Part shown: positions 16,178-25,365 of the stretch, piece by piece | Position numbering within the stretch: the first letter of the stretch is position 1 | Layout of the letters: every line of letters begins with the position of its first letter | Sequence record: EF437941 | Source of the DNA: Escherichia phage Phi1 | Length of the DNA stretch: 64,000 nucleotides | Reading direction: 5' to 3' (one strand) | Translations under genes and position numbers: made by a program | Notes under the pieces: generated by a model | Seen by the model: only the letters and a program-made list of their open reading frames with translations | The model's database searches: none | Told to the model about the DNA's origin: nothing

Positions 16178-16732
16178 TTAGTTATTTTTTAATTGCTCAT
16201 CTTGCAATAGGGAAATCACATGCTGGCGATGTTCTTCCGATTGAGGGACACCGAAAAAGTTTGTTTTGTAGAAATACTCTAATCGGTCTTCTCGTGTGCT
16301 CTCTTCCATCATGATCGCGGGTAGTCCGAGATTTCGGAAACGTCGCTTTTCTGCTGGCGTAAAATCACTGTAATACAGCATAGAATCATCGTTACCAGCA
16401 ATGCTAAACTCATCATTCATGAAGGAGAATATTGCGTTTAAACGCTGTTTACCGTCCACGATTTCGATCTCATAGCGAGAGCCATCATCAATCTTAGCCA
16501 TTGCGATAGCACCAACCGGAAAATCATTAATCAGGTTTTCGATAAACATACGTTTGTTTTCGGTGTCCCATACCAAAGGACGCTGATAATCTGGGTTCAT
16601 GTTGATATAGCCATCTTCTAACCACGCCTCATAAACAGAGATGACAAAGTTTTTAGTATTGGTATAGTAACGGCGTTTAGGCGTTAAACGGTTCATGTTA
16701 TAGTCTCCTGAATGGATCATCACGTAAATCAA
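16178..16732 (-). CDS. ParB/Srx-fold DUF262-like protein
   Basis: Motifs PDYQRPLVW and IVDGKQRLNAI resemble the DUF262 (GmrSD N-terminal) signature; last gene of a coupled operon. Confidence 0.5.
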   Translation of the reverse strand: MIYVMIHSGDYNMNRLTPKRRYYTNTKNFVISVYEAWLEDGYINMNPDYQRPLVWDTENKRMFIENLINDFPVGAIAMAKIDDGSRYEIEIVDGKQRLNAIFSFMNDEFSIAGNDDSMLYYSDFTPAEKRRFRNLGLPAIMMEESTREDRLEYFYKTNFFGVPQSEEHRQHVISLLQDEQLKNN

Positions 16733-17030
16733 TATCTTTTAAGAACTCATCCCATGAATGGCGGATATTGTTCTTAATTCTCCAGATAAGCGCAGGGATT
16801 GAACGCTCTCCCATCTGGAAGTAAGGATCATATGATCCGTATGCCCAATATGCTACTACAATTCCACAATCAGCGCAATAATATTCTATTTCACTTGCTG
16901 GCGACCAAAGTCCATCAATATGATCGGTGATCCTGCTTTCGATGTTATGGCTATGGCAATCAGGGCAACGGATGCAATGACCTTGTTTATCGTAATTTGA
17001 CGTTAGCGAATACTTAAACAATCTCATCAT
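16698..17030 (-). CDS. Zinc-ribbon protein
   Basis: CxxC...CxxC pairs (CIRCPDC, CADCG); overlaps both neighbours, suggesting translational coupling. Confidence 0.45.
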   Translation of the reverse strand: MMRLFKYSLTSNYDKQGHCIRCPDCHSHNIESRITDHIDGLWSPASEIEYYCADCGIVVAYWAYGSYDPYFQMGERSIPALIWRIKNNIRHSWDEFLKDIDLRDDPFRRL

Positions 17031-17743
17031 AGATCCTTATTGGCTTCAAATACTGCCTTTGCGAATCCTCGCGGGGTAAGTGACCTGATAGTCTTTGTTC
17101 TGGTTCCTTTCCCGCCTAGCTTAGAATGCTGTTTACTGTACCCTTTATTAATATGCAACGGTTTCTTTTCTGGCATTATAAAGCCTTGTCCGGTCCATAA
17201 GCAAGTCTTTTTCGGGTACATATCACGGGCGGCAATATACTCAGGAAACGTAGGATGTTTATCATCTTCCGGCAAATAACCGCCATATTCCCACGGATGG
17301 AACATGTAATCAGGCTTACGCCACATACTAGAGATAACGCTTACAGGATTCTCTATCATGTAGGGAACTCCTAGCCATTCACCCAAATAAGCGGTTATTT
17401 TAGCTGCCCGTACATCATGAACTTGAATCAATGGTCCTTGTTCTCGTTTCTTTCGTTCAAAGTGTGCAGCGCCACTAACAGCTAAATTGGTGCACGGTGG
17501 GAATGCAAATATAATATCCGGTTTCCCCCATTCAAGGTCCATTGCTCTTTCCAGCCAGTTCAAATCAATCCAGGTGTTTACATAAGTAATGTTTGGATGT
17601 TCAAATCTGGTATTATACTTTTTGTATGTACCGTGGTCGGCGTCATCCGCATTAAAGCAGACTACCTTATGACCTGCTTTAGCCCATTCTAGCCCCATTA
17701 TCCCCGATCCGTCAAAGTTGCAGAATATTAATTTTTGTTTCAT
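17027..17743 (-). CDS. Minimal cytosine-C5 methyltransferase-like protein
   Basis: 238 aa with motif I-like FDGSG, motif IV-like FPPC and motif VI-like ENP in canonical order; no obvious target-recognition domain. Confidence 0.4.
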   Translation of the reverse strand: MKQKLIFCNFDGSGIMGLEWAKAGHKVVCFNADDADHGTYKKYNTRFEHPNITYVNTWIDLNWLERAMDLEWGKPDIIFAFPPCTNLAVSGAAHFERKKREQGPLIQVHDVRAAKITAYLGEWLGVPYMIENPVSVISSMWRKPDYMFHPWEYGGYLPEDDKHPTFPEYIAARDMYPKKTCLWTGQGFIMPEKKPLHINKGYSKQHSKLGGKGTRTKTIRSLTPRGFAKAVFEANKDL

Positions 17744-18233: not shown

Positions 18234-18273
18234 TGTTTGATTCTCCTAAGTGGTATCTCGTTTCGATGGTTGT

Positions 18274-18304
18274 ATTGTAGGGGGAGTTATCCTCCCCTGT
18301 CAAC
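18274..18304 (-). promoter_or_regulatory. Early promoter cassette (TTGACA-N18-TACAAT)
   Basis: Spacer holds the palindrome GGGGAGGATAACTCCCCC; conserved leader and RBS follow. Confidence 0.55.
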
Positions 18305-18317
18305 ACTTTTTATAAAA

Positions 18318-18485
18318 TTATTTGTTAATTTCTGGTGCGTTGCTAGGATAGTAACCTTCTTTAACTCCGAGGTATTTCGCAACCATCCCTACAATCTTCT
18401 GTGCTACTACAATGTCAAATTTCAGATAATCTTCGCCGTGGGTTTCAATGATATATGCTTCACATGCTGCTTTAGTCTCGAACAT
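18318..18485 (-). CDS. Small hypothetical protein (55 aa), paralog of 21593..21760
   Basis: MFETKAACEAYIIETHGEDYLKFDIVVAQK..., roughly 89 percent identical to the second copy. Confidence 0.5.
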   Translation of the reverse strand: MFETKAACEAYIIETHGEDYLKFDIVVAQKIVGMVAKYLGVKEGYYPSNAPEINK

Positions 18486-18518
18486 TTTGATTCTCCTATT
18501 TCGTTTCGGTATGTGTGT

Positions 18519-18548
18519 AGTATAGGGGATCTCCCGACCCCCGTCAAC
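18519..18548 (-). promoter_or_regulatory. Early promoter cassette (TTGACG-N17-TATACT)
   Basis: Conserved architecture with a GATC-containing GC-rich spacer. Confidence 0.5.
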
Positions 18549-18561
18549 AACTTTTTTAAAA

Positions 18562-18843
18562 TTATTCGTGATTAGTTTCGATGTTGTGCATTTTGCACCA
18601 GTTCAACCAATCACCCATATCTTGATAGTTGATGCTTTTATCTGCTGCCATCGTTTTTGTCTTGATACCCATATGTGCGTTATGAGTAAGCATTTTTACA
18701 GTGAACTCAATTTTATCGCCTTTAGCTTTAACATCAACCAGTTTGGTCCACTGGCTACCAGCGCCGCGAATGTTCATACCAACGATGTTTCCGATGTATG
18801 CTTCTTTGTTTTTCAGGATTTCGGTTGCTTTGATGAATTTCAT
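18562..18843 (-). CDS. Small hypothetical early protein
   Basis: 93 aa with RBS and own promoter cassette. Confidence 0.5.
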   Translation of the reverse strand: MKFIKATEILKNKEAYIGNIVGMNIRGAGSQWTKLVDVKAKGDKIEFTVKMLTHNAHMGIKTKTMAADKSINYQDMGDWLNWCKMHNIETNHE

Positions 18844-18876
18844 TTTTGATTCTCCAGTTCGTTTCGGTATGGGTGT

Positions 18877-18906
18877 ATTATGCTATGTTCTTACTTTGGT
18901 GTCAAC
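18877..18906 (-). promoter_or_regulatory. Early promoter cassette (TTGACA-N17-CATAAT)
   Basis: Conserved -35, -10 and leader. Confidence 0.6.
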
Positions 18907-18913
18907 AACTTTT

Positions 18914-19183
18914 TTAGATATTTTCAGAAATAAATTTTAAAACTTGACGTAAATGTTTCTCATCTTTGATAGTCGCCGGAAGTTCTTCTTTTACTTCCTG
19001 TGCAAGATAGATATTTCCGTTCCAAGTGAAAGATCCGTCTTTGTTTACGCGATAGCTGAACATCCACTCGCAATCATTTTCGATTTCATATACACACAGA
19101 AGGGTGTAATCGTTAAAGCTATTGATTTCAAGGTCGAAGCCGTGACGTTTTGCAAAGTTGGTAGTGGTTTTAGTCAGTGCCAT
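18914..19183 (-). CDS. Small hypothetical early protein
   Basis: 89 aa with RBS and own promoter cassette. Confidence 0.5.
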   Translation of the reverse strand: MALTKTTTNFAKRHGFDLEINSFNDYTLLCVYEIENDCEWMFSYRVNKDGSFTWNGNIYLAQEVKEELPATIKDEKHLRQVLKFISENI

Positions 19184-19223
19184 TGTTTGATTCTCCTAAG
19201 TGGTATCTCGTTTCGATGGGTGT

Positions 19224-19253
19224 ATTATGCTATAGGTCGGATCTGGTGTCAAT
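19224..19253 (-). promoter_or_regulatory. Early promoter cassette (TTGACA-N17-CATAAT)
   Basis: Conserved -35, -10 and leader. Confidence 0.6.
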
Positions 19254-19275
19254 TCTTTTTTTAAAATTTTATGCA

Positions 19276-19302
19276 ATAAAAAAGCCGACGCTAAGGTCGG
19301 CT
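19276..19302 (-). terminator. Rho-independent terminator
   Basis: GCCGACCTTAGCGTCGGC hairpin followed on the minus strand by UUUUUUAUU. Confidence 0.65.
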
Positions 19303-19309
19303 AATAAAA

Positions 19310-19618
19310 TCATTTAGACAAATAATCATTCAGTGCAATCCGGTCGGCGTATGCTGGTGTTACGTCAATCGCAATCACTTTAACGCGTGCTTTCTTGCGA
19401 CCTGGGTTTTCACGTAACCAGTGCTCATGACCGTGAACATTTTTATACTGCGATGCTTCTTCGAAGGTACGGATCGGACCTGGGTAATCAGCGTAAAGGA
19501 TCTCTAGATCTTCGGTGATGTAAAAATATACATCATAATTACTGTTCTCTAGTTTAAGCAGAGACTTTCGGAACATTGGGAGATTTTCGCGGGTAAATTC
19601 AAAGATATTATCTTTCAT
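19310..19618 (-). CDS. H-x-H-W family small protein (member 1)
   Basis: HGHEHWL ... VIAIDVTPAYAD motif block shared with five paralogs. Confidence 0.5.
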   Translation of the reverse strand: MKDNIFEFTRENLPMFRKSLLKLENSNYDVYFYITEDLEILYADYPGPIRTFEEASQYKNVHGHEHWLRENPGRKKARVKVIAIDVTPAYADRIALNDYLSK

Positions 19619-19668
19619 AGTATTATCCTCAATAGTTGGATGAGAAGGGGCGTTAACGCCCCCATATA

Positions 19669-19956
19669 TTAAAACAGTCCTTCATGTACACCGTAGTAGA
19701 GTTCGTCGCTGATAATTTCATTAATGCGACGGTGTGCATATTCCTGATTTGCGAAGTTGTCAGCAAGTTCTACTTTAGTTTCGCCGTCATGAGTCCATTT
19801 AGTGATAACTTTACCATCTGCAAATTTGAAGTTGAACTCTTTAGCTACTGCATCGCGTACCAGACGTGCAAACTTATTGTTGCGGATTGCATTGTCGGTT
19901 TCGTGTGAAGCGTGAGCAAATTTGTTAACTTTCAGAGTGATAGTGATGTATGCCAT
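19669..19956 (-). CDS. Small hypothetical protein, paralog of 22995..23306
   Basis: Shares an AKEFN(F/T)K block with the 22995..23306 product. Confidence 0.5.
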   Translation of the reverse strand: MAYITITLKVNKFAHASHETDNAIRNNKFARLVRDAVAKEFNFKFADGKVITKWTHDGETKVELADNFANQEYAHRRINEIISDELYYGVHEGLF

Positions 19957-20002
19957 AATTTGATTCTCCTAGTTAGAAAGTGTATCTCGTTTTGATGGGG
20001 AT

Positions 20003-20032
20003 ATTATGCTATATCCCCGATCCGGTGTCAAC
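20003..20032 (-). promoter_or_regulatory. Early promoter cassette (TTGACA-N17-CATAAT)
   Basis: Conserved architecture; spacer palindrome GGATCGGGGATAT... Confidence 0.55.
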
Positions 20033-20037
20033 ACTTT

Positions 20038-20316
20038 TTATAAAATAATTTTTTGATATTTTTCTATGATGTTCGTGTAAGTCACATCAACCGCTAGCAC
20101 CGTTGCTTCGAATCCACCGTTTAGCCAATGGCTATGATCATGGTCGTGAAAGAAACCTAGACCAGTACGAAGACCTTCTTTATATTCTGCGCGTACATTC
20201 AGTTTGTCGTCGATAAACAGATAAAACCATGAATTTTTACTAGGATTGATGATACAACCTTTCAGATTAGGGAGAATATCACGACTAAGAATAAACTTAT
20301 CACCTACTTTGAACAT
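20038..20316 (-). CDS. H-x-H-W family small protein (member 2)
   Basis: HDHDHSHWL ... VLAVDVT motif; start placed at the internal Met with GAGGA RBS. Confidence 0.5.
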   Translation of the reverse strand: MFKVGDKFILSRDILPNLKGCIINPSKNSWFYLFIDDKLNVRAEYKEGLRTGLGFFHDHDHSHWLNGGFEATVLAVDVTYTNIIEKYQKIIL

Positions 20317-20320
20317 AATA

Positions 20321-20641
20321 TTAGTCCTCACTTATAAGGTCAAACCAATTGTTTTTCGCATAATGCTTAATGCGTGCTTGATCTGCTTCCGCTGGTGATA
20401 GATTCCATGCAACCACTACAACTTCTGACGCATCGTCATCCGTTTCTGATACCCAATGATTGTGATTCATACAGTTATTTGCTATCGAGTGAGCAAATGA
20501 TTTCATCACTGGAGACGTATAATCATAGTAACGGATTTTCAGATTTTCATCAACATACAAATAGATCGTATAAGGTTTATATTCAGTAACCAGTAACAGA
20601 CAGTTACGCAATTCTGGGAAAATCTTTTTAGTTAATTTCAT
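20321..20641 (-). CDS. H-x-H-W family small protein (member 3)
   Basis: NHNHW ... VVVVAW..SPAEAD motif. Confidence 0.45.
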   Translation of the reverse strand: MKLTKKIFPELRNCLLLVTEYKPYTIYLYVDENLKIRYYDYTSPVMKSFAHSIANNCMNHNHWVSETDDDASEVVVVAWNLSPAEADQARIKHYAKNNWFDLISED

Positions 20642-20843
20642 ATTCTAGTTCTCCGTAATACACGGTAATCCATTTTTCTTCATACTTTGTATCTTTCCAA
20701 CACACAATACCGTTTACTGTGCAATCTTTGGAATTGACGAATGATTCATATTGTTCCGCATCTTCCATCATTTCATGAGCGGTCTTTTCATCGAATATAT
20801 CGCAGATCGCTTTATATGCTCGATAATCTTTAAATTTGCTCAT
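20628..20843 (-). CDS. Small hypothetical protein, paralog of 20846..21055
   Basis: MSKFKDYRAY... shares its N-terminus and a cysteine pattern with the adjacent gene. Confidence 0.45.
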   Translation of the reverse strand: MSKFKDYRAYKAICDIFDEKTAHEMMEDAEQYESFVNSKDCTVNGIVCWKDTKYEEKWITVYYGELEYEIN

Positions 20844-20845
20844 AA

Positions 20846-21055
20846 TTAACACCACTCAAGAGTTTTTGAAAACACATCTATCCATTGTTGAGTATATGCG
20901 GTTTCTTTCCATGATACAATACCAGTCGAATAATGGTTTTTGTTTCCAGAAAAGGACGGGCATTTTGATGCATCTTCCATCATCTTTTCGGCGAACTCTG
21001 GTTCGTATACTCGCAAGATCTGTTGATATGCTTTATAATCTTTAAACTTACTCAT
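20846..21055 (-). CDS. Small hypothetical protein, paralog of 20628..20843
   Basis: MSKFKDYKAY...; tandem duplicate. Confidence 0.45.
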   Translation of the reverse strand: MSKFKDYKAYQQILRVYEPEFAEKMMEDASKCPSFSGNKNHYSTGIVSWKETAYTQQWIDVFSKTLEWC

Positions 21056-21336
21056 AACAACACCACCGATACATCGTAATCATTCGCGGCCTTATCGGCT
21101 TCTTCAACCGACATAATACCTTCTGCGACAATTGGCATAGGGTGATCGTGATTCCACCAATGGTCATGTATATCAATTTCAGTTTTGCCGGAAAATGAAT
21201 CATGTTTGACGTTTTTCACTTTATACCCGATGTGACCGTCGTGGTCAATAAAGATATAGTTTCCGAAAATCGGTGTCTGTAAAATCATACCGAAAAATTT
21301 TTCTTTGTTGTTCGGGTCGAGTGTAATCATTTTCAT
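21052..21336 (-). CDS. H-x-H-W family small protein (member 4)
   Basis: IHDHWWNHDHP ... motif. Confidence 0.45.
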   Translation of the reverse strand: MKMITLDPNNKEKFFGMILQTPIFGNYIFIDHDGHIGYKVKNVKHDSFSGKTEIDIHDHWWNHDHPMPIVAEGIMSVEEADKAANDYDVSVVLL

Positions 21337-21348
21337 AATATATTCCTC

Positions 21349-21528
21349 TTAGAAAGGGATGGTCATTTCTTGAGCTTGTACATTCTCATTAGGATTAAAC
21401 TTAATCCAACCGATATTGTCTACCAGCATATGCACATTTTTATCATATCCTACGTGAGTAGTCAACACTAAATGTGATTTACCTTCAACGATGATTTCCA
21501 TGTACTTCTGAACTTCGATAGCTTTCAT
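21349..21528 (-). CDS. Small hypothetical protein (59 aa)
   Basis: ORF below the track cutoff (MKAIEVQKYM...), read by hand, with RBS downstream of a promoter cassette. Confidence 0.4.
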   Translation of the reverse strand: MKAIEVQKYMEIIVEGKSHLVLTTHVGYDKNVHMLVDNIGWIKFNPNENVQAQEMTIPF

Positions 21529-21560
21529 TTTGATTCTCCGTTTGTTGTCTTGATGGGAGT

Positions 21561-21590
21561 ATCTTACTACTCCCTTTAATCATTGTCAAC
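21561..21590 (-). promoter_or_regulatory. Early promoter cassette (TTGACA-N17-TAAGAT)
   Basis: Variant -10 with the palindrome GGGAGTAGTAAGATACTCCC around it. Confidence 0.45.
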
Positions 21591-21592
21591 TA

Positions 21593-21760
21593 TTATTTGT
21601 TAATTTCCGGTGCGTTGCTTGGATAGTAACCTTCTTTAACACCCAGATATTTTGCAACCATTCCGGTGATCTTCTGTGCTACTACGATATCGAATTTCAG
21701 GTAGTCTTCACCGTGGGTTGCTACAAAGTATGCTTCGCATTCTGCTTTAGTCTGGAACAT
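21593..21760 (-). CDS. Small hypothetical protein (55 aa), paralog of 18318..18485
   Basis: MFQTKAECEAYFVATHGEDYLKFDIVVAQK...; the track ORF has an unlikely N-terminal extension across the promoter. Confidence 0.5.
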   Translation of the reverse strand: MFQTKAECEAYFVATHGEDYLKFDIVVAQKITGMVAKYLGVKEGYYPSNAPEINK

Positions 21761-21793
21761 TTTGATTCTCCTATATCTCGTTGGTATGTGTGT

Positions 21794-21823
21794 AGTATAG
21801 GGGATCGGTGATCCCCTGTCAAC
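21794..21823 (-). promoter_or_regulatory. Early promoter cassette (TTGACA-N17-TATACT) with GATC palindrome
   Basis: Spacer AGGGGATCACCGATCCCCT. Confidence 0.55.
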
Positions 21824-21830
21824 AACTTTT

Positions 21831-22139
21831 TTATTCTTCATCTTCATTTTTATCTTTATATGCGTACTTCATAAATTTGTCTGCTACTTTGTCCGCGTTT
21901 TCAGGTTCTACGTCTGACGCTAGGACAACAGCTAGTTCGGTTTTGTCGTTTCCATCATACCAATGATTATGAGTGTCGTTTTCTTCGATATAAAACGAAT
22001 CATTTGGAGTTGTGCGACAATATACGTCTAAATTCCCATCGATATAAAAGATCCAATCCGAATACAAAATGATTGCGTTAGCCAGATTTTTATTGTCTCT
22101 TACAAAAGGTTCCGCGACAAATAGCTTAGTTTGTTCCAT
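21831..22139 (-). CDS. H-x-H-W family small protein (member 5)
   Basis: THNHWY ... LAVVLASDVEPENADK motif; start at the internal Met with GAGGAAA RBS. Confidence 0.5.
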   Translation of the reverse strand: MEQTKLFVAEPFVRDNKNLANAIILYSDWIFYIDGNLDVYCRTTPNDSFYIEENDTHNHWYDGNDKTELAVVLASDVEPENADKVADKFMKYAYKDKNEDEE

Positions 22140-22155
22140 AATATTTTCCTCAAAA

Positions 22156-22347
22156 TTATACAGCTTCGTAAACTTCCCAATGTTCAGCGCCAACACGCTT
22201 AACGAAAAGGTTTTCTTTGATGTTATTCATAAACGTCTGGATGGATTTAATGCGGTTGGAAGGTTTCCAGTCTTCGTTGGCATTGCGATGATACATAATA
22301 ACATTACCAGTTCGCTTATATTCAGCAACCATTTTAAGACCACACAT
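22156..22347 (-). CDS. Small hypothetical protein
   Basis: 63 aa with GAGGATAA RBS. Confidence 0.45.
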   Translation of the reverse strand: MCGLKMVAEYKRTGNVIMYHRNANEDWKPSNRIKSIQTFMNNIKENLFVKRVGAEHWEVYEAV

Positions 22348-22404
22348 AATATTATCCTCAATTTGTGGGAGAGTATTACCCCTCCCAATGATTGTTATGT
22401 TATA

Positions 22405-22725
22405 TCACACAAAATGGCGTGTCAATGCTTCTTTTGCGGTTCCGCTAAGACTTTCGATCTCGCCTGGCATAACATCAACCGCCAGAACTTCTACAACATC
22501 CTCGGACCCTAACCAGTGAGTATGGCCTTTGTAGAACTTGATAACCAGACTACCTTCCTCATCCCATTTAACACTATCGCTAGCCCACCACACATCACCG
22601 TCGATAAAGTTGATGTAAAGCACACTACGCCACATTGAATTAATTACTTTCAATACTGCGCCTTTCATCTCTTCCACGGTATGGTCTTCCATTTTGAAGA
22701 CCTCACCTACCTGAACTTTTGCCAT
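22405..22725 (-). CDS. H-x-H-W family small protein (member 6)
   Basis: KGHTHWLGSEDVVEVLAVDVMPGE motif. Confidence 0.5.
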   Translation of the reverse strand: MAKVQVGEVFKMEDHTVEEMKGAVLKVINSMWRSVLYINFIDGDVWWASDSVKWDEEGSLVIKFYKGHTHWLGSEDVVEVLAVDVMPGEIESLSGTAKEALTRHFV

Positions 22726-22922: not shown

Positions 22923-22956
22923 GATTGATTCTCCTAGTTCGTTTCGGTATGTGTGT

Positions 22957-22987
22957 ATTATAGGGGATCTCCCGATCCCCTGTCAAC
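22957..22987 (-). promoter_or_regulatory. Early promoter cassette (TTGACA-N18-TATAAT) with GATC palindrome
   Basis: Spacer GGGGATCGGGAGATCCCC. Confidence 0.6.
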
Positions 22988-22994
22988 AACTTTT

Positions 22995-23306
22995 TTAAAG
23001 TTTTTCCATGATAACGGTCATAATTACATCTTCTGCGCGAGCGGTCAGATTATCAGCGTCAGCATGTGGGCGGTTGGTTGTTACAGAGATAACACCGTTG
23101 CGCACTGGTTTGATATTGATATCAAGATGATCCGCGAAACGTTCGCCAGTTACAGAATGAATTTTGGTGTTAAATTCTTTTGCCAGTGCCTTGCGAACTT
23201 CACGAATCAGGGTAGCGTTTTTCAGTTGGTTCTCCGCGCTCATGGTCTTCTGGGTGTTCATGGTTCCGTCGAAGTCAATCATTGGCAGCGTTACGATGTA
23301 TTTCAT
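22995..23306 (-). CDS. Small hypothetical protein, paralog of 19669..19956
   Basis: 103 aa with the shared AKEFNTK block. Confidence 0.5.
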   Translation of the reverse strand: MKYIVTLPMIDFDGTMNTQKTMSAENQLKNATLIREVRKALAKEFNTKIHSVTGERFADHLDINIKPVRNGVISVTTNRPHADADNLTARAEDVIMTVIMEKL

Positions 23307-23351
23307 TTTTGATTCTCCGTTTAAGAAAGTGTGTTTCGTTTTGATGTGTGT

Positions 23352-23382
23352 ATTATAAGGGGATCACCGATCCCCTGTCAAC
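23352..23382 (-). promoter_or_regulatory. Early promoter cassette (TTGACA-N18-TATAAT) with GATC palindrome
   Basis: Spacer GGGGATCGGTGATCCCCT. Confidence 0.6.
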
Positions 23383-23393
23383 AACTTTTTGAA

Positions 23394-23870
23394 TTATTTT
23401 TCTTGATGCTCGCGCTCGTACTTTTCGAAATAAAATTCTACTGGCTGATCGTGGATTGAAAGCAAGCCAAAGCGTTTAGCCGCTCGCAATCCCATATTGC
23501 GCTGAATGTACTTCTGGAAGTTCTCGCGTATACACTTACGCCAGGATTCTAAGCCCATACAGCTTTTATAAAGATTGCATTGCACACACGCCGGATTCAT
23601 GTTATCAAGTATATCATGCTCCGGTTTATGCATTCCTACAACCTTATACTTCCACGATCCATCATCATTACGAGCAATTCGTCCATTTTCATCATAGACT
23701 ACCTTTGAGCGTCGTAATACTGGTTTGATGTGGTCTGCGTGCCAGCGATCCCCTAGTTCCTCGCCACAATAGGCACAACGTCCACCATATTTCATTTTCA
23801 GGATCTGGCGTTGCTCTTTCTTTGACAATTTTTTAGGTTTAGGGGCTTTCGCCCCTTCATTATCACACAT
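23394..23870 (-). CDS. HNH endonuclease
   Basis: CAYCG ... HADHIKP ... N ... CVQCN: HNH core with a Cys4 zinc site; start overlaps the ligase stop. Confidence 0.7.
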   Translation of the reverse strand: MCDNEGAKAPKPKKLSKKEQRQILKMKYGGRCAYCGEELGDRWHADHIKPVLRRSKVVYDENGRIARNDDGSWKYKVVGMHKPEHDILDNMNPACVQCNLYKSCMGLESWRKCIRENFQKYIQRNMGLRAAKRFGLLSIHDQPVEFYFEKYEREHQEK

Positions 23871-25365
23871 CGAATACCTCTTTTACTGTATTTGCAGTGG
23901 TCTTGTCGTAGCGAATACGTTTGATGATCGGGAGAAATAAAGAGAACTCCGGTTCATCTTCTTTACGTGATTTGCTTCGAATGTACCCGTTGCATGTCAT
24001 CTCAATGACTTTTCCGACCAGGTTATGCCGTTCAGCCCATAACATTTCTCGGTCAAGATCATTTCGACGATCGAACGGAATTACACGTTCAATACCATCA
24101 TCACATTTTTCGGTTGTGGTGTCAGTCAATCCCGATCCGGTGTTAGTCATCATTCGTCCGCACGCACTACGGACAGTAAAACCGCCCACCTTATTAGGAT
24201 CTTTACTATGCGGATATACATCAACAATTTCCGCGTCGAAGTCAATCACTTCTTTAAATTTAACCTGATCTTTACTGCGACGATCTTCAAATACACCATG
24301 TAAATTTTTAAGGATAATACCTTCTAATCCCATGTTTACATAGCGATGATATACTTCGCGAGCTTCATCGAGATTGTTAACTACGGTATTTTCGATTATC
24401 TGAACACGAGGATCGTTAAGTTCTTCAACAATCTGTTTTAGTTCCTCAAATCGATCTTTATACTGCTTCGTTGCTTTCTCGTTACCGTAGTACACATCAC
24501 GGTCGATAACATCCCAGACAGTGTAAACAATACATTGGGCTTCTTCTTTTGGAATAGTTCCTTTCAGTGATTTGTTGAGGATACCATTTCCGGTCTGACG
24601 ATCTGCAACAACGGATTCTTTCACTGCTTCCGTTACTGGCGTTAATGGCATTTCCTCTTCTTCAAATATCCATGACAGAGTACCATCATAAACGCTCTCA
24701 ACGAAGTTCTGCGCTGGTGTTTGCGAAAGGGTAGGCATATATACCAATTCGCCATCTAGAACAATTCCACGGCCTCGTAAACGCTCTAAAACCGCAAACA
24801 AATCATCAAGCCCTTGATAGGTATTACCTGAGCGGGTATAGATTGCTAATGTTTCCCCGTCAATATCAGCCATCCCACGAGCGCCATCGCTTTTAAGTTG
24901 TGCATACGCCGGATACTTGATATTAGCAATAGTCTTGTCAGAACATGACGATGCAAGGTGGCACGGCTGCTGGGGGATCAGTTTCTTCCATACCTTGTTT
25001 GCAGTGGTAGCGGAACAACCGCATTCCAGGTCACGATTCAGGACCATCATTGCAACTTTAGCATCATCCTCTGACAAGCAAGTCAGAGTATCGGTAACTA
25101 GCTGTAATGCTGCATTACCAGTTACTTGACGCGTGGCAAGTTTATTTTTAAAGACCTGTAATGCACCGGATAAAGACAATACAGACGAATAACGCGATGG
25201 TTTATCGTATTTCTTTACGCCAAACGTAACCTGTTTGCAATATGCCAGATAAAAGCATTCTTTCAGCGTTTCATTGCTCGCGGATTCTTTCAGAATCTTT
25301 TCTTTCAGCGATGTTTTGTCTGTTGCTGCAAGCTGATTAATGATATTAAGAATTGACATTTTCAC
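23863..25365 (-). CDS. 30: ATP-dependent DNA ligase gp30
   Basis: 500 aa matching T4 DNA ligase, including the adenylation motif AQLKSDGAR. Confidence 0.9.
   Translation of the reverse strand: MKMSILNIINQLAATDKTSLKEKILKESASNETLKECFYLAYCKQVTFGVKKYDKPSRYSSVLSLSGALQVFKNKLATRQVTGNAALQLVTDTLTCLSEDDAKVAMMVLNRDLECGCSATTANKVWKKLIPQQPCHLASSCSDKTIANIKYPAYAQLKSDGARGMADIDGETLAIYTRSGNTYQGLDDLFAVLERLRGRGIVLDGELVYMPTLSQTPAQNFVESVYDGTLSWIFEEEEMPLTPVTEAVKESVVADRQTGNGILNKSLKGTIPKEEAQCIVYTVWDVIDRDVYYGNEKATKQYKDRFEELKQIVEELNDPRVQIIENTVVNNLDEAREVYHRYVNMGLEGIILKNLHGVFEDRRSKDQVKFKEVIDFDAEIVDVYPHSKDPNKVGGFTVRSACGRMMTNTGSGLTDTTTEKCDDGIERVIPFDRRNDLDREMLWAERHNLVGKVIEMTCNGYIRSKSRKEDEPEFSLFLPIIKRIRYDKTTANTVKEVFDV

What the first reader, a model, noticed from the sequence alone, without database searches (positions are those of the whole stretch)
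19310..22725. Six-member paralog family of ~100-aa proteins with a conserved H-x-H-W motif
ORFs at 19310, 20038, 20321, 21052, 21831 and 22405 share a common architecture: an N-terminal hydrophobic block, a histidine cluster (HGHEHW, HDHDHSHW, NHNHW, HDHWWNHDH, THNHW, GHTHW) and a downstream (L/V)A(V/I)DV.P..AD block. Six diverged copies inside 3.4 kb of an early region point to repeated duplication and diversification, a pattern typical of host-interaction or anti-defence genes. The histidine cluster suggests metal binding. I cannot assign a known family.
Basis: seen in the sequence. Interest (0 to 1): 0.55.

Follow-up and report, generated by a model that had tools for sequence, protein, structure and literature searches.

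The report
Orphan six-copy phage early protein family
Six neighbouring genes of an RB49-like (Krischvirus) coliphage really do encode one old family of small soluble proteins built around an invariant His-x-His-Trp motif, but the family matches no known protein family or fold, is dispensable in the laboratory, and its function is still unknown.

Summary
The window is a Krischvirus (98.7% identical to phage GEC-3S). Six minus-strand genes (A 19310-19618, B 20038-20316, C 20321-20641, D 21052-21336, E 21831-22139, F 22405-22725) are homologous, shown by BLASTP, HMM, PHROG cross-hits and hhalign (79-96% probability). H-x-H-W lies at one aligned position. They are real genes: each has a Shine-Dalgarno site, dN/dS is 0-0.3, and they sit behind sigma70-type early promoters (PeSL cassettes) in the alt-to-ligase hyperplastic region.

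The duplications are ancient (20-32% identity), not recent. Variation between phages comes from allele replacement, frameshifts and a repeat-mediated deletion; phage FL04 lacks A-D.

Metal binding is neither shown nor excluded. Only one His and the Trp are invariant, and there are no conserved Cys.

My best guess is accessory early host- or defence-interaction proteins that share one conserved site flanked by variable loops. This is moderately interesting.

The parts
19310..19618 (-). Family member A (102 aa; ortholog RB49p197; phrog_9345). HEHW is at 19418-19429.
   Evidence: ORF. SD GAGGA lies before the ATG. HMM E 5e-27. AF2 pLDDT 86, pTM 0.81. dN/dS 0.1-0.4. The gene is frameshifted in JSE and kvi.
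20038..20316 (-). Family member B (92 aa from the ATG at 20316; the ORF extends to a GTG at 20331; ortholog RB49p199; phrog_17255). HSHW is at 20125-20136.
   Evidence: hhalign of the B subfamily against the F subfamily gives 79%, E 1.6e-5.
20321..20641 (-). Family member C (106 aa; ortholog RB49p200; phrog_9345). HNHW is at 20453-20464.
   Evidence: (A-C BLASTP 7e-14).
21052..21336 (-). Family member D (94 aa; slot of RB49p203; phrog_15972). HDHW is at 21157-21168.
   Evidence: hhalign of the A/C subfamily against the D subfamily gives 93.9%, E 1.6e-7. There are two allele classes, 55-58% identical.
21831..22139 (-). Family member E (102 aa from the ATG at 22139; the ORF extends to a GTG at 22196; slot of RB49p206; phrog_15965). 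It is acidic, with pI 4.3. HNHW is at 21960-21971.
   Evidence: AF2 pLDDT 85, pTM 0.80. It is retained in FL04, and the two members on the distant metagenomic contig L002 are most similar to E.
22405..22725 (-). Family member F (106 aa; ortholog RB49p208; phrog_16486). HTHW is at 22513-22524.
   Evidence: hhalign of the A/C subfamily against the F subfamily gives 95.7%, E 9e-9.
22925..23012 (-). PeSL cassette with a perfect TTGACA-N18-TATAAT promoter (22986-22957). It is predicted to drive the unit 59-aa gene, F, 63-aa gene, E.
   Evidence: Repeat families D2 and D3; promoter scan 12/12; annotated as a promoter in GEC-3S. PeSLs are described as strong sigma70-like early promoters plus terminators in PMC2839356.
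21561..21589 (-). Sigma70-like promoter (TTGACA-N17-TAAGAT). It is predicted to drive the unit 59-aa gene, D, 69-aa gene, 71-aa gene, C, B, whose genes are tightly packed or overlapping.
   Evidence: Promoter scan; GEC-3S promoter annotation; intergenic gaps of -14 to +12 nt.
19982..20046 (-). PeSL cassette with promoter 20031-20003. It is predicted to drive the 95-aa gene (19669-19956) and then A.
19283..19302 (-). Intrinsic-terminator-like stem-loop immediately downstream of A.
   Evidence: Terminator scan; annotated as a terminator in GEC-3S.
21539..21838 (.). Upstream copy of a 300-nt direct repeat (a 55-aa gene plus a PeSL). Recombination with the copy at 18264-18563 deletes members A-D.
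   Evidence: Repeat D1, 78% identity. The FL04 junction maps exactly onto the two copies.
18264..18563 (.). Downstream copy of the same 300-nt direct repeat.

Best explanation
The six genes are ancient paralogs of a Krischvirus-restricted, soluble, roughly 95-106-aa alpha/beta domain. Its predicted topology is b1-b2-b3-b4, a variable loop, a short helix that begins with H-x-H-W, b5, and a C-terminal helix.

Shown here:
- They are real protein-coding genes under purifying selection.
- They sit in three predicted transcription units behind sigma70-type early promoters (PeSL cassettes), in the hyperplastic region between alt and DNA ligase gp30.
- They are accessory. Individual copies are lost, frameshifted or swapped in natural isolates that still plaque on E. 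coli K-12.

Inferred:
- They act in the cytoplasm in the first minutes of infection as small binders or modulators of host or host-defence components.
- All copies share one functional site formed by the invariant His-Trp, supported by the near-invariant first His and the conserved acidic positions (Asp35, Asp/Asn85 and Asp92 in A numbering).
- The two hypervariable loops flanking the motif, and the divergent surfaces (net charge about 0 to -13), give each paralog and each allele a different target specificity.
- A natural tandem fusion of two domains hints that the unit works as a dimer.
For: Identity of the phage and its region.

Homology of the six.

The genes are real:
- An SD site precedes every ATG.
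- dN/dS is 0-0.3 in every ortholog comparison with measurable dS, except A versus the frameshifted kvi copy (0.40) and E versus JK32 (0.55), while dS reaches saturation for the D and E alleles.

Early expression is predicted from perfect or near-perfect TTGACA/TATAAT promoters in PeSL repeats. The same sites are annotated as promoters in GEC-3S. The PeSL function is described in PMC2839356.

The proteins are soluble: maximum KD(19) is 1.11 or less.

Confident and concordant AF2 models exist for A and E: pLDDT 86 and 85, pTM 0.81 and 0.80, same order of secondary-structure elements. BFVD models of other members match, with TM up to 0.79.

The genes are accessory:
- FL04, isolated on MG1655, lacks A-D through recombination between the 300-nt repeats.
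- A is frameshifted in JSE and kvi.
- B and C are replaced by other family members in JSE and KMB43.

Conserved site with variable flanks:
- Within orthogroups the motif is 87-100% identical, whereas the flanking loops are the least conserved segments in most orthogroups (53-85% and 59-93%).
- Between paralogs the motif is 77% identical and the loops 7-10%.
- The conserved polar positions are listed.

Tandem fusion: P0087.

Long-term retention: the family is present in the same alt-ligase interval of a relative that is only about 75% identical in baseplate DNA.
Against: - No experiment or homology ties any member to a host target or a defence system.
- All neighbours are also ORFans.
- Loops are usually the most variable parts of any protein, so the variable-flank pattern is weak evidence.
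- The gene-wide dN/dS values give no sign of the arms-race positive selection typical of many anti-defence genes.
- I could not read model coordinates. The proximity of the His residues and the conserved Asp residues, and whether the Trp is exposed or buried, are therefore untested.
- In the RB49-type E allele the first His is Ser, and one member (P0097) has lost it entirely. The 'site' may therefore reduce to His-Trp.
- Early timing is predicted from promoters, not measured.
Confidence: 0.45

Rival explanations
1. The proteins are small metalloproteins or metallo-enzymes. The two His residues of H-x-H-W, together with conserved carboxylates (or His pairs contributed by two subunits of a dimer), coordinate a divalent metal. 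The proteins then either hydrolyse or bind a small molecule, for example a nucleotide immune signal, or bind and sequester Zn or Ni. This is compatible with an anti-defence role and so is not exclusive of the main explanation.
For: - H-x-H is conserved in 18 of 19 diverse members, alongside Asp35 (16/19), Asp/Asn85 and Asp92 (13/18).
- His-rich expansions occur around the motif in A (HGHEHW), B (HDHDHSHW) and D (HDHWWNHDH).
- The tandem fusion P0087 suggests dimers, which could pair two H-x-H motifs.
Against: - There is no match to any metal-dependent family: Pfam, NCBIfam and PDB are negative, and Cupin_2 scores E 0.19 in one member only.
- Only one His is strictly invariant. The natural alleles SNHW and P0097 lack the first His.
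- The extra His residues are not conserved even between paralogs.
- No Cys is conserved.
- No three- or four-ligand set is invariant; member A has Thr at position 35.
Confidence: 0.25
2. The H-x-H-W motif is purely structural, with the Trp packed in the core and the His residues capping the short helix. On this view the six paralogs are a generic scaffold whose members have unrelated functions or binding partners, and there is no shared active site.
For: - The motif sits at the N-terminus of a short helix in both models.
- Every other strongly conserved position is hydrophobic core: Leu16, Ile20, Tyr33, Ile34, Phe52, Val81, Ala83, Val86.
- Net charge and surfaces differ greatly between paralogs.
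Against: - Two consecutive polar His residues held almost invariant over 20-30% overall identity is unusual for a purely structural role.
- pLDDT dips at the motif in model A (block 61-70 averages 67). That fits an exposed, ligand-dependent element better than a core element.
Confidence: 0.2
3. The ORFs are functionless filler, or selfish passengers. They would be kept only because PeSL-mediated recombination shuffles and propagates cassettes in the hyperplastic region.
For: - The region is the classic PeSL shuffling region of RB49/phi1.
- Copies are lost, frameshifted or swapped in nature without loss of viability.
Against: - dN/dS is 0-0.3, even for alleles whose synonymous sites are saturated.
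- All six slots are retained in five of the nine surveyed Krischvirus phages.
- Members persist in a distant relative in the same interval.
- Core residues are conserved, and the AF2 folds are confident.
Confidence: 0.05
4. The proteins are membrane or superinfection-exclusion proteins, as the first reader's 'N-terminal hydrophobic block' might suggest. Alternatively they are diverged members of a characterised housekeeping domain such as HIT, JAMM/MPN, cupin or KOW/SH3.
For: - Hydrophobic YxYI-type stretches occur near residues 20-35.
- One nr record labels a B-type protein 'KOW2-KOW3 domains of Spt5'.
- There are weak hits to PROCT (18.7 bits, cut-off 23.6) and to Spindlin (E 0.4 or worse).
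Against: - No segment reaches transmembrane-like hydropathy; the maximum KD(19) is 1.11.
- The hydrophobic stretch is beta-strands b2/b3 in both models.
- No Pfam family recurs among 19 diverse members.
Confidence: 0.03

Closest known systems
PHROGs 9345, 17255, 15972, 15965 and 16486 (all 'unknown function'), and the RB49 hypothetical proteins RB49p197, p199, p200, p203, p206 and p208
   Same: These are the same proteins. Each window gene matches its phrog at 1e-49 to 1e-72. Orthologs are annotated as hypothetical proteins in about 55 Krischvirus genomes.
   Different: The databases treat them as five unrelated families. Here they are shown to be one superfamily with an invariant His-Trp. No name, function or structure is attached to any of them.
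PeSL-flanked ORFan cassettes of the RB49/phi1 hyperplastic regions (Arbiol et al. 2010, PMC2839356; Comeau et al. 2014, PMC4122927)
   Same: Same genome region (RB49 ORFs 191-211), the same promoter/stem-loop cassettes, and the same mode of variation, namely insertion, deletion and replacement by recombination between cassettes.
   Different: Those papers deal with the shuffling mechanism and with ORFs 192 and 210. They do not contain the words 'paralog' or 'family', and 'duplicat' occurs only for duplicate cultures; none of the passages I read describes these six ORFs or their relationship.
Small early host-takeover and counter-defence proteins of T4-type phages (for example Arn, Dmd, IPI*, Srd, Srh, MotB). 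This is an analogy from general knowledge, not a tested relationship.
   Same: Similar size (60-160 aa), early sigma70-type promoters, location in dispensable regions, and non-essentiality in laboratory hosts.
   Different: There is no sequence or fold similarity. T4 ORFs from dexA.2 to soc score 2.2 bits or less against the family HMM. The exhaustive profile search found nothing outside about 17 small clusters, and every one that could be traced comes from Krischvirus or a close relative. No target is known.
H-x-H metal or catalytic motifs of known superfamilies: HIT (HxHxHxx), JAMM/MPN (HxHx7Sx2D), metallo-beta-lactamase (HxHxDH), cupin (HxH...E)
   Same: Two histidines spaced by one residue. 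A and B even read HxHxHW.

Membership tests
One paralogous family (the claim of the finding) | Statistically significant sequence similarity linking all six, with the motif in the same alignment columns | tested here: met
   BLASTP network. HMM finds only these six. phrog_9345 hits all six. hhalign gives 79-96% probability, E 1.6e-5 to 9e-9.
One paralogous family (the claim of the finding) | Shared predicted fold | tested here: met
   AF2 models of A and E have the same order of secondary-structure elements. BFVD models of C-, D- and E-type members match model A with probability 0.99-1.0.
PeSL-driven early cassette genes of T4-type hyperplastic regions | Location in a hyperplastic region, downstream of PeSL repeats that carry sigma70-like promoters and stem-loops | tested here: met
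   The genes lie between alt and gp30. There are eight PeSL-like repeats. The promoters match 10-12 of 12 consensus positions. Transcription timing itself was not measured.
HIT (histidine triad) superfamily | H-phi-H-phi-H-phi-phi motif and the HIT alpha+beta fold | tested here: not met
JAMM/MPN metalloproteases | E...HxHx7Sx2D motif and the MPN fold | tested here: not met
   The only hint is a PROCT hit at 18.7 bits, below the 23.6 cut-off, in B alone. The S-x-x-D element is absent. MPND appears in Foldseek only at E 1.8, TM 0.25.
Metallo-beta-lactamase fold | HxHxDH motif and the alpha-beta/beta-alpha sandwich of about 200 aa or more | tested here: not met
KOW / SH3-like / Tudor barrels | Five-stranded SH3-like barrel, with a profile match to KOW or Tudor | tested here: inconclusive
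Membrane / superinfection-exclusion proteins | At least one transmembrane or signal segment | tested here: not met
   Maximum KD(19) is 0.46-1.11.
Metal-binding protein (generic) | An invariant set of three or more ligands brought together in space; measured metal content | not testable with these tools
   The candidate ligands are only partly conserved.
Anti-defence protein (generic) | Homology to a known inhibitor, or a measured rescue of phage from a defence system | tested here: inconclusive
   There is no homology to anything named in PHROGs, Pfam, NCBIfam or PDB. No phenotype data turned up in the literature searches. The functional test cannot be done here.

The most novel reading that the evidence does not exclude
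The family is a previously unrecognised fold of small His/Asp-site proteins. On this reading they bind or hydrolyse small-molecule immune signals (or metals) as dimers, and the six paralogs and their swapped alleles form a panel of specificities, giving cytosine-unmodified Krischvirus phages a modular counter-defence toolkit that is shuffled by PeSL recombination.
Probability: 0.1. Interest if true: 0.7.

Novelty: new member of a known kind. Interest (0 to 1): 0.35.

Why it matters
Hyperplastic regions of T4-type phages are thought to hold the adaptive, host-specific genes, yet almost none of their ORFans has a function.

This result merges five 'unknown' PHROGs into a single superfamily. It gives the family a sharply defined motif, two confident structure models, and a natural deletion mutant (FL04, which lacks A-D). 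That makes a tractable entry point: six genes, one testable site (His66/Trp67), and ready-made comparators among sequenced phages.

If the family proves to be a counter-defence or host-takeover module, it would help explain how RB49-like phages, said to lack T4-type cytosine modification (my own recollection, not checked here), cope with host immunity. It would also add a new fold to that repertoire.

If it does not, it remains an ordinary example of an ORFan family in a phage accessory region.

Tried and rejected

2. The weak Pfam T4_Y03C hit of P0088 (E 0.1). T4 ORFs from dexA.2 to soc score 2.2 bits or less against the family HMM, so I dropped the lead.

4. Extra copies elsewhere. There are none in the rest of the window or in the first 100 kb of GEC-3S.

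5. A wider phyletic range.
   - The exhaustive profile search gave only 19 clusters. Two are spurious repeat proteins (P0096, P0098).
   - tblastn of divergent members hits Krischvirus only.
   - IMG/VR scans with P0095 and P0092 found nothing, and the E-subfamily profile found only two Krischvirus-like contigs.
   - The whole-family alignment was too divergent for pattern search.

6. A fixed partner gene. In the distant contig L002 the neighbouring ORFans are the same families but in a different order, so there is no conserved pairing.

7. Positive selection. The gene-wide dN/dS values are all well below 1. Site models were not run.

8. Modelling the tandem fusion P0087 as a proxy for a dimer. 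I abandoned this because MAFFT split every single-domain sequence across the two halves, and the tool returns no coordinates.

9. The by-eye similarity of the 95-aa and 103-aa neighbours. BLASTP gives E 2.6, so it is rejected.

10. Literature. No paper mentions these ORFs or an HxHW motif in this context.

Full report
**What the window is.** The 4.4 kb around the finding is 98.7% identical to Enterobacteria phage GEC-3S and 90-95% identical to about 55 other Krischvirus (RB49-like, T4-type) coliphages. In GEC-3S and RB49 the region lies between alt (RNA polymerase ADP-ribosyltransferase) and gene 30 (DNA ligase), and every gene in it apart from a DNA methyltransferase and an HNH endonuclease is annotated 'hypothetical protein'. 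This interval (RB49 ORFs 191-211) is the hyperplastic region where Arbiol et al. described PeSLs. PeSLs are repeated cassettes made of a strong sigma70-like early promoter plus a terminator stem-loop, and they mediate modular shuffling (PMC2839356).

**Check of the observation.** All six ORFs exist on the minus strand.
- H-x-H-W is encoded at 19418-19429, 20125-20136, 20453-20464, 21157-21168, 21960-21971 and 22513-22524. It occupies the same alignment columns in all six.
- Pairwise BLASTP links all six into one network: A-C 7e-14, A-F 7e-6, A-B 2e-5, D-E 3e-5, B-C 5e-5, B-F 2e-4, C-E 1e-3.
- An HMM built from the six retrieves exactly these six among 606 six-frame ORFs of the window. H.HW occurs only seven times in those ORFs, and six of the seven are these genes.
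- Independent profiles agree. phrog_9345 hits all six. hhalign between subfamily alignments gives 93.9% (A/C vs D), 95.7% (A/C vs F), 85% (E vs D) and 79% (B vs F).
B and E most likely start at the internal ATGs 20316 and 22139, which have GAGGA Shine-Dalgarno sites and match the GEC-3S annotation. The downstream 'LAxDV..P..AD' block is only partly conserved. The 'hydrophobic block' is core beta-strand, not membrane; maximum KD(19) is 1.11 or less.

**They are real, early, accessory genes.**
- Every copy has a Shine-Dalgarno sequence 5-9 nt before its ATG.
- Against nine other Krischvirus loci, dN/dS is 0-0.3 wherever dS is measurable, except 0.40 (A versus the frameshifted kvi copy) and 0.55 (E versus JK32). 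This includes allele pairs whose synonymous sites are saturated.
- The six lie in three predicted transcription units behind TTGACA-N17/18-TATAAT-type promoters, which are part of PeSL repeats and are annotated as promoters in GEC-3S:
  - P(22986-22957): 59-aa gene, F, 63-aa gene, E.
  - P(21589-21561): 59-aa gene, D, 69-aa gene, 71-aa gene, C, B.
  - P(20031-20003): 95-aa gene, A, then a terminator at 19302-19283.
- Early timing is therefore a prediction, not a measurement.

**Distribution.**
- An exhaustive profile search of 1.84 billion representative proteins returned only 19 clusters at E < 1e-3. Two of these are spurious repeat proteins. The rest are 80-128-aa proteins plus one 203-aa tandem fusion.
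- Word-indexed searches and tblastn find only Krischvirus genomes, metagenomic fragments of them, or whole-phage contigs mislabelled E. coli.
- There are no further copies elsewhere in the window or in the other 100 kb of the GEC-3S genome.
- A 20-kb metagenomic contig from a more distant T4-like phage, about 75% identical to Krischvirus in baseplate DNA, carries two E-like members in the same ligase-alt interval.
- A 2.1-kb contig carries an F-like gene, the tandem fusion, a D-like gene and a C-like gene side by side.

**How the family varies.**
- The paralogs are 20-32% identical and share no nucleotide similarity, so the duplications are old.
- The six 'slots' are conserved in GEC-3S, RB49 (RB49p197, 199, 200, 203, 206, 208), JK32, G2248 and ELT4.
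- Slot D has two allele classes only 55-58% identical. Slot E alleles are 66-93% identical. The flanking ligase is 98% identical with dS 0.12-0.14.
- In JSE and KMB43, slots B and C hold two other C-like family members that are 46-54% identical to C.
- A is frameshifted in JSE and kvi.
- Phage FL04, isolated on K-12 MG1655, retains only E and F. Its junction maps exactly onto the two copies of a 300-nt direct repeat (18264-18563 and 21539-21838; a duplicated 55-aa gene plus PeSL). Homologous recombination there therefore removed A-D and six other ORFs.
- Variation thus comes from cassette exchange and loss, as in the PeSL model, not from recent duplication or detectable gene-wide positive selection.

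**Structure and the motif.**
- AlphaFold2 gives confident, concordant models for A (pLDDT 86, pTM 0.81) and E (pLDDT 85, pTM 0.80).
- The topology is four beta-strands, a long loop, a short helix whose N-terminus is the H-x-H-W, a fifth strand ('VLAxDV') and a C-terminal helix ('xEAD...').
- Pfam, NCBIfam and PDB sequence profiles are negative, and no weak Pfam hit recurs among 19 diverse members.
- Across 19 diverse members only His66 and Trp67 (A numbering) are invariant. His64 is present in 18 of 19. Other conserved polar positions are Asp35 (16/19), Asp/Asn85 and Asp92 (13/18). Every other conserved position is hydrophobic.
- The RB49-type E allele reads SNHW.
- Within orthogroups the motif is 87-100% identical, while the two loops flanking it are the least conserved segments in most orthogroups. 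Between paralogs those loops are 7-10% identical and carry indels.
- The proteins have pI 4.3-6.9 and net charge from about 0 to -13, so acidity is not a family trait.

**Interpretation.**
- What is shown: one ancient, lineage-restricted family of soluble small proteins. They are under purifying selection, sit behind early-type promoters in a shuffling-prone accessory region, and are individually dispensable on a laboratory host.
- What is inferred: they act early in the cytoplasm on host or host-defence components. They would use a common site centred on His-Trp, with the first His and the conserved carboxylates. Flanking variable loops and divergent surfaces would set the specificity. The natural tandem fusion hints at dimers. 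I give this about 0.45.
- Metal binding or catalysis at the His/Asp positions is a compatible but unproven refinement (about 0.25). Against it are the lack of an invariant ligand set, the natural first-His-less alleles, the absence of Cys, and the absence of any match to metal-dependent families.
- A purely structural role for the motif is the main alternative (about 0.2).
- 'Junk' ORFs are contradicted by selection and retention. Membrane proteins are contradicted by hydropathy. Membership of a known housekeeping domain is contradicted by the negative family and fold searches.

**Novelty and score.**
- The genes are already in databases as hypothetical proteins and as five separate unknown-function PHROGs. 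The two PeSL papers do not mention a paralog family, and no paper found in the searches discusses these ORFs.
- What appears new is the unification into one superfamily with an invariant His-Trp, an apparently unmatched fold, and a natural four-gene deletion.
- It remains one more ORFan family in a region known to be full of them, with no function. A specialist would not be surprised.
- I rate interest at 0.35 and class it as a new member of a known kind (accessory ORFan families of T4-type hyperplastic regions).

Noticed in passing
window 18264-18563 and 21539-21838: A 300-nt direct repeat (78% nt identity) holds two copies of a 55-aa gene (18318-18485 and 21593-21760, 89% aa identity) plus a PeSL. 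Phage FL04 is the exact recombinant between the two copies and lacks the roughly 3 kb in between.
   Followed up: yes
window 20628-20843 and 20846-21055 (minus strand): Two adjacent small genes (71 and 69 aa) between D and C are themselves paralogs (46% aa identity, E 2e-20). They have no Pfam match. The 71-aa slot also shows deep allelic divergence between phages (44-62% identity).
   Followed up: partly
window ~18266-18329, 18487-18574, 18845-18924, 19203-19267, 19982-20046, 21762-21841, 22925-23012, 23344-23407: Eight PeSL-like repeats (promoter plus GC-rich stem-loop plus TTGACAACAACTTTTTT-type tail on the plus strand) punctuate the region. Several have perfect sigma70 hexamers.
   Followed up: partly
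window 16698-17030 and 17027-17743 (minus strand): A Dcm-like DNA methyltransferase (238 aa) is translationally coupled to a 110-aa protein with two CxxC pairs (weak Zn_Ribbon_TF hit, below cut-off). This may be relevant to restriction evasion in a phage said to have unmodified cytosines (from memory, not checked here).
   Followed up: no
window 23394-23870 and 23863-25365 (minus strand): An HNH endonuclease gene overlaps the 3' end of the DNA ligase (gp30) gene by 8 nt. It is conserved at 98-99% identity in all surveyed Krischvirus phages.
   Followed up: no
L014 823-1434 (metagenome contig SRR8048117_15661): A natural 203-aa protein (P0087) consists of two family domains in tandem, each with its own HNHW. 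It is flanked by three single-domain members. This hints that the domain functions as a dimer.
   Followed up: partly
L007 8874-9262 (phage JSE) and L012 6082-6539 (phage kvi): Member A is split by a frameshift in two sequenced isolates. This could be natural pseudogenisation or a sequencing error, and I did not resolve which.
   Followed up: no
L002 7200-10900 (metagenome contig k119_4708): A distant Krischvirus relative has the same ORFan families (homologs of the 93-, 83-, 95-, 69-, 89- and 59-aa window genes) in the ligase-alt interval, but in a different order. This is direct evidence of cassette shuffling over longer evolutionary distance.
   Followed up: partly
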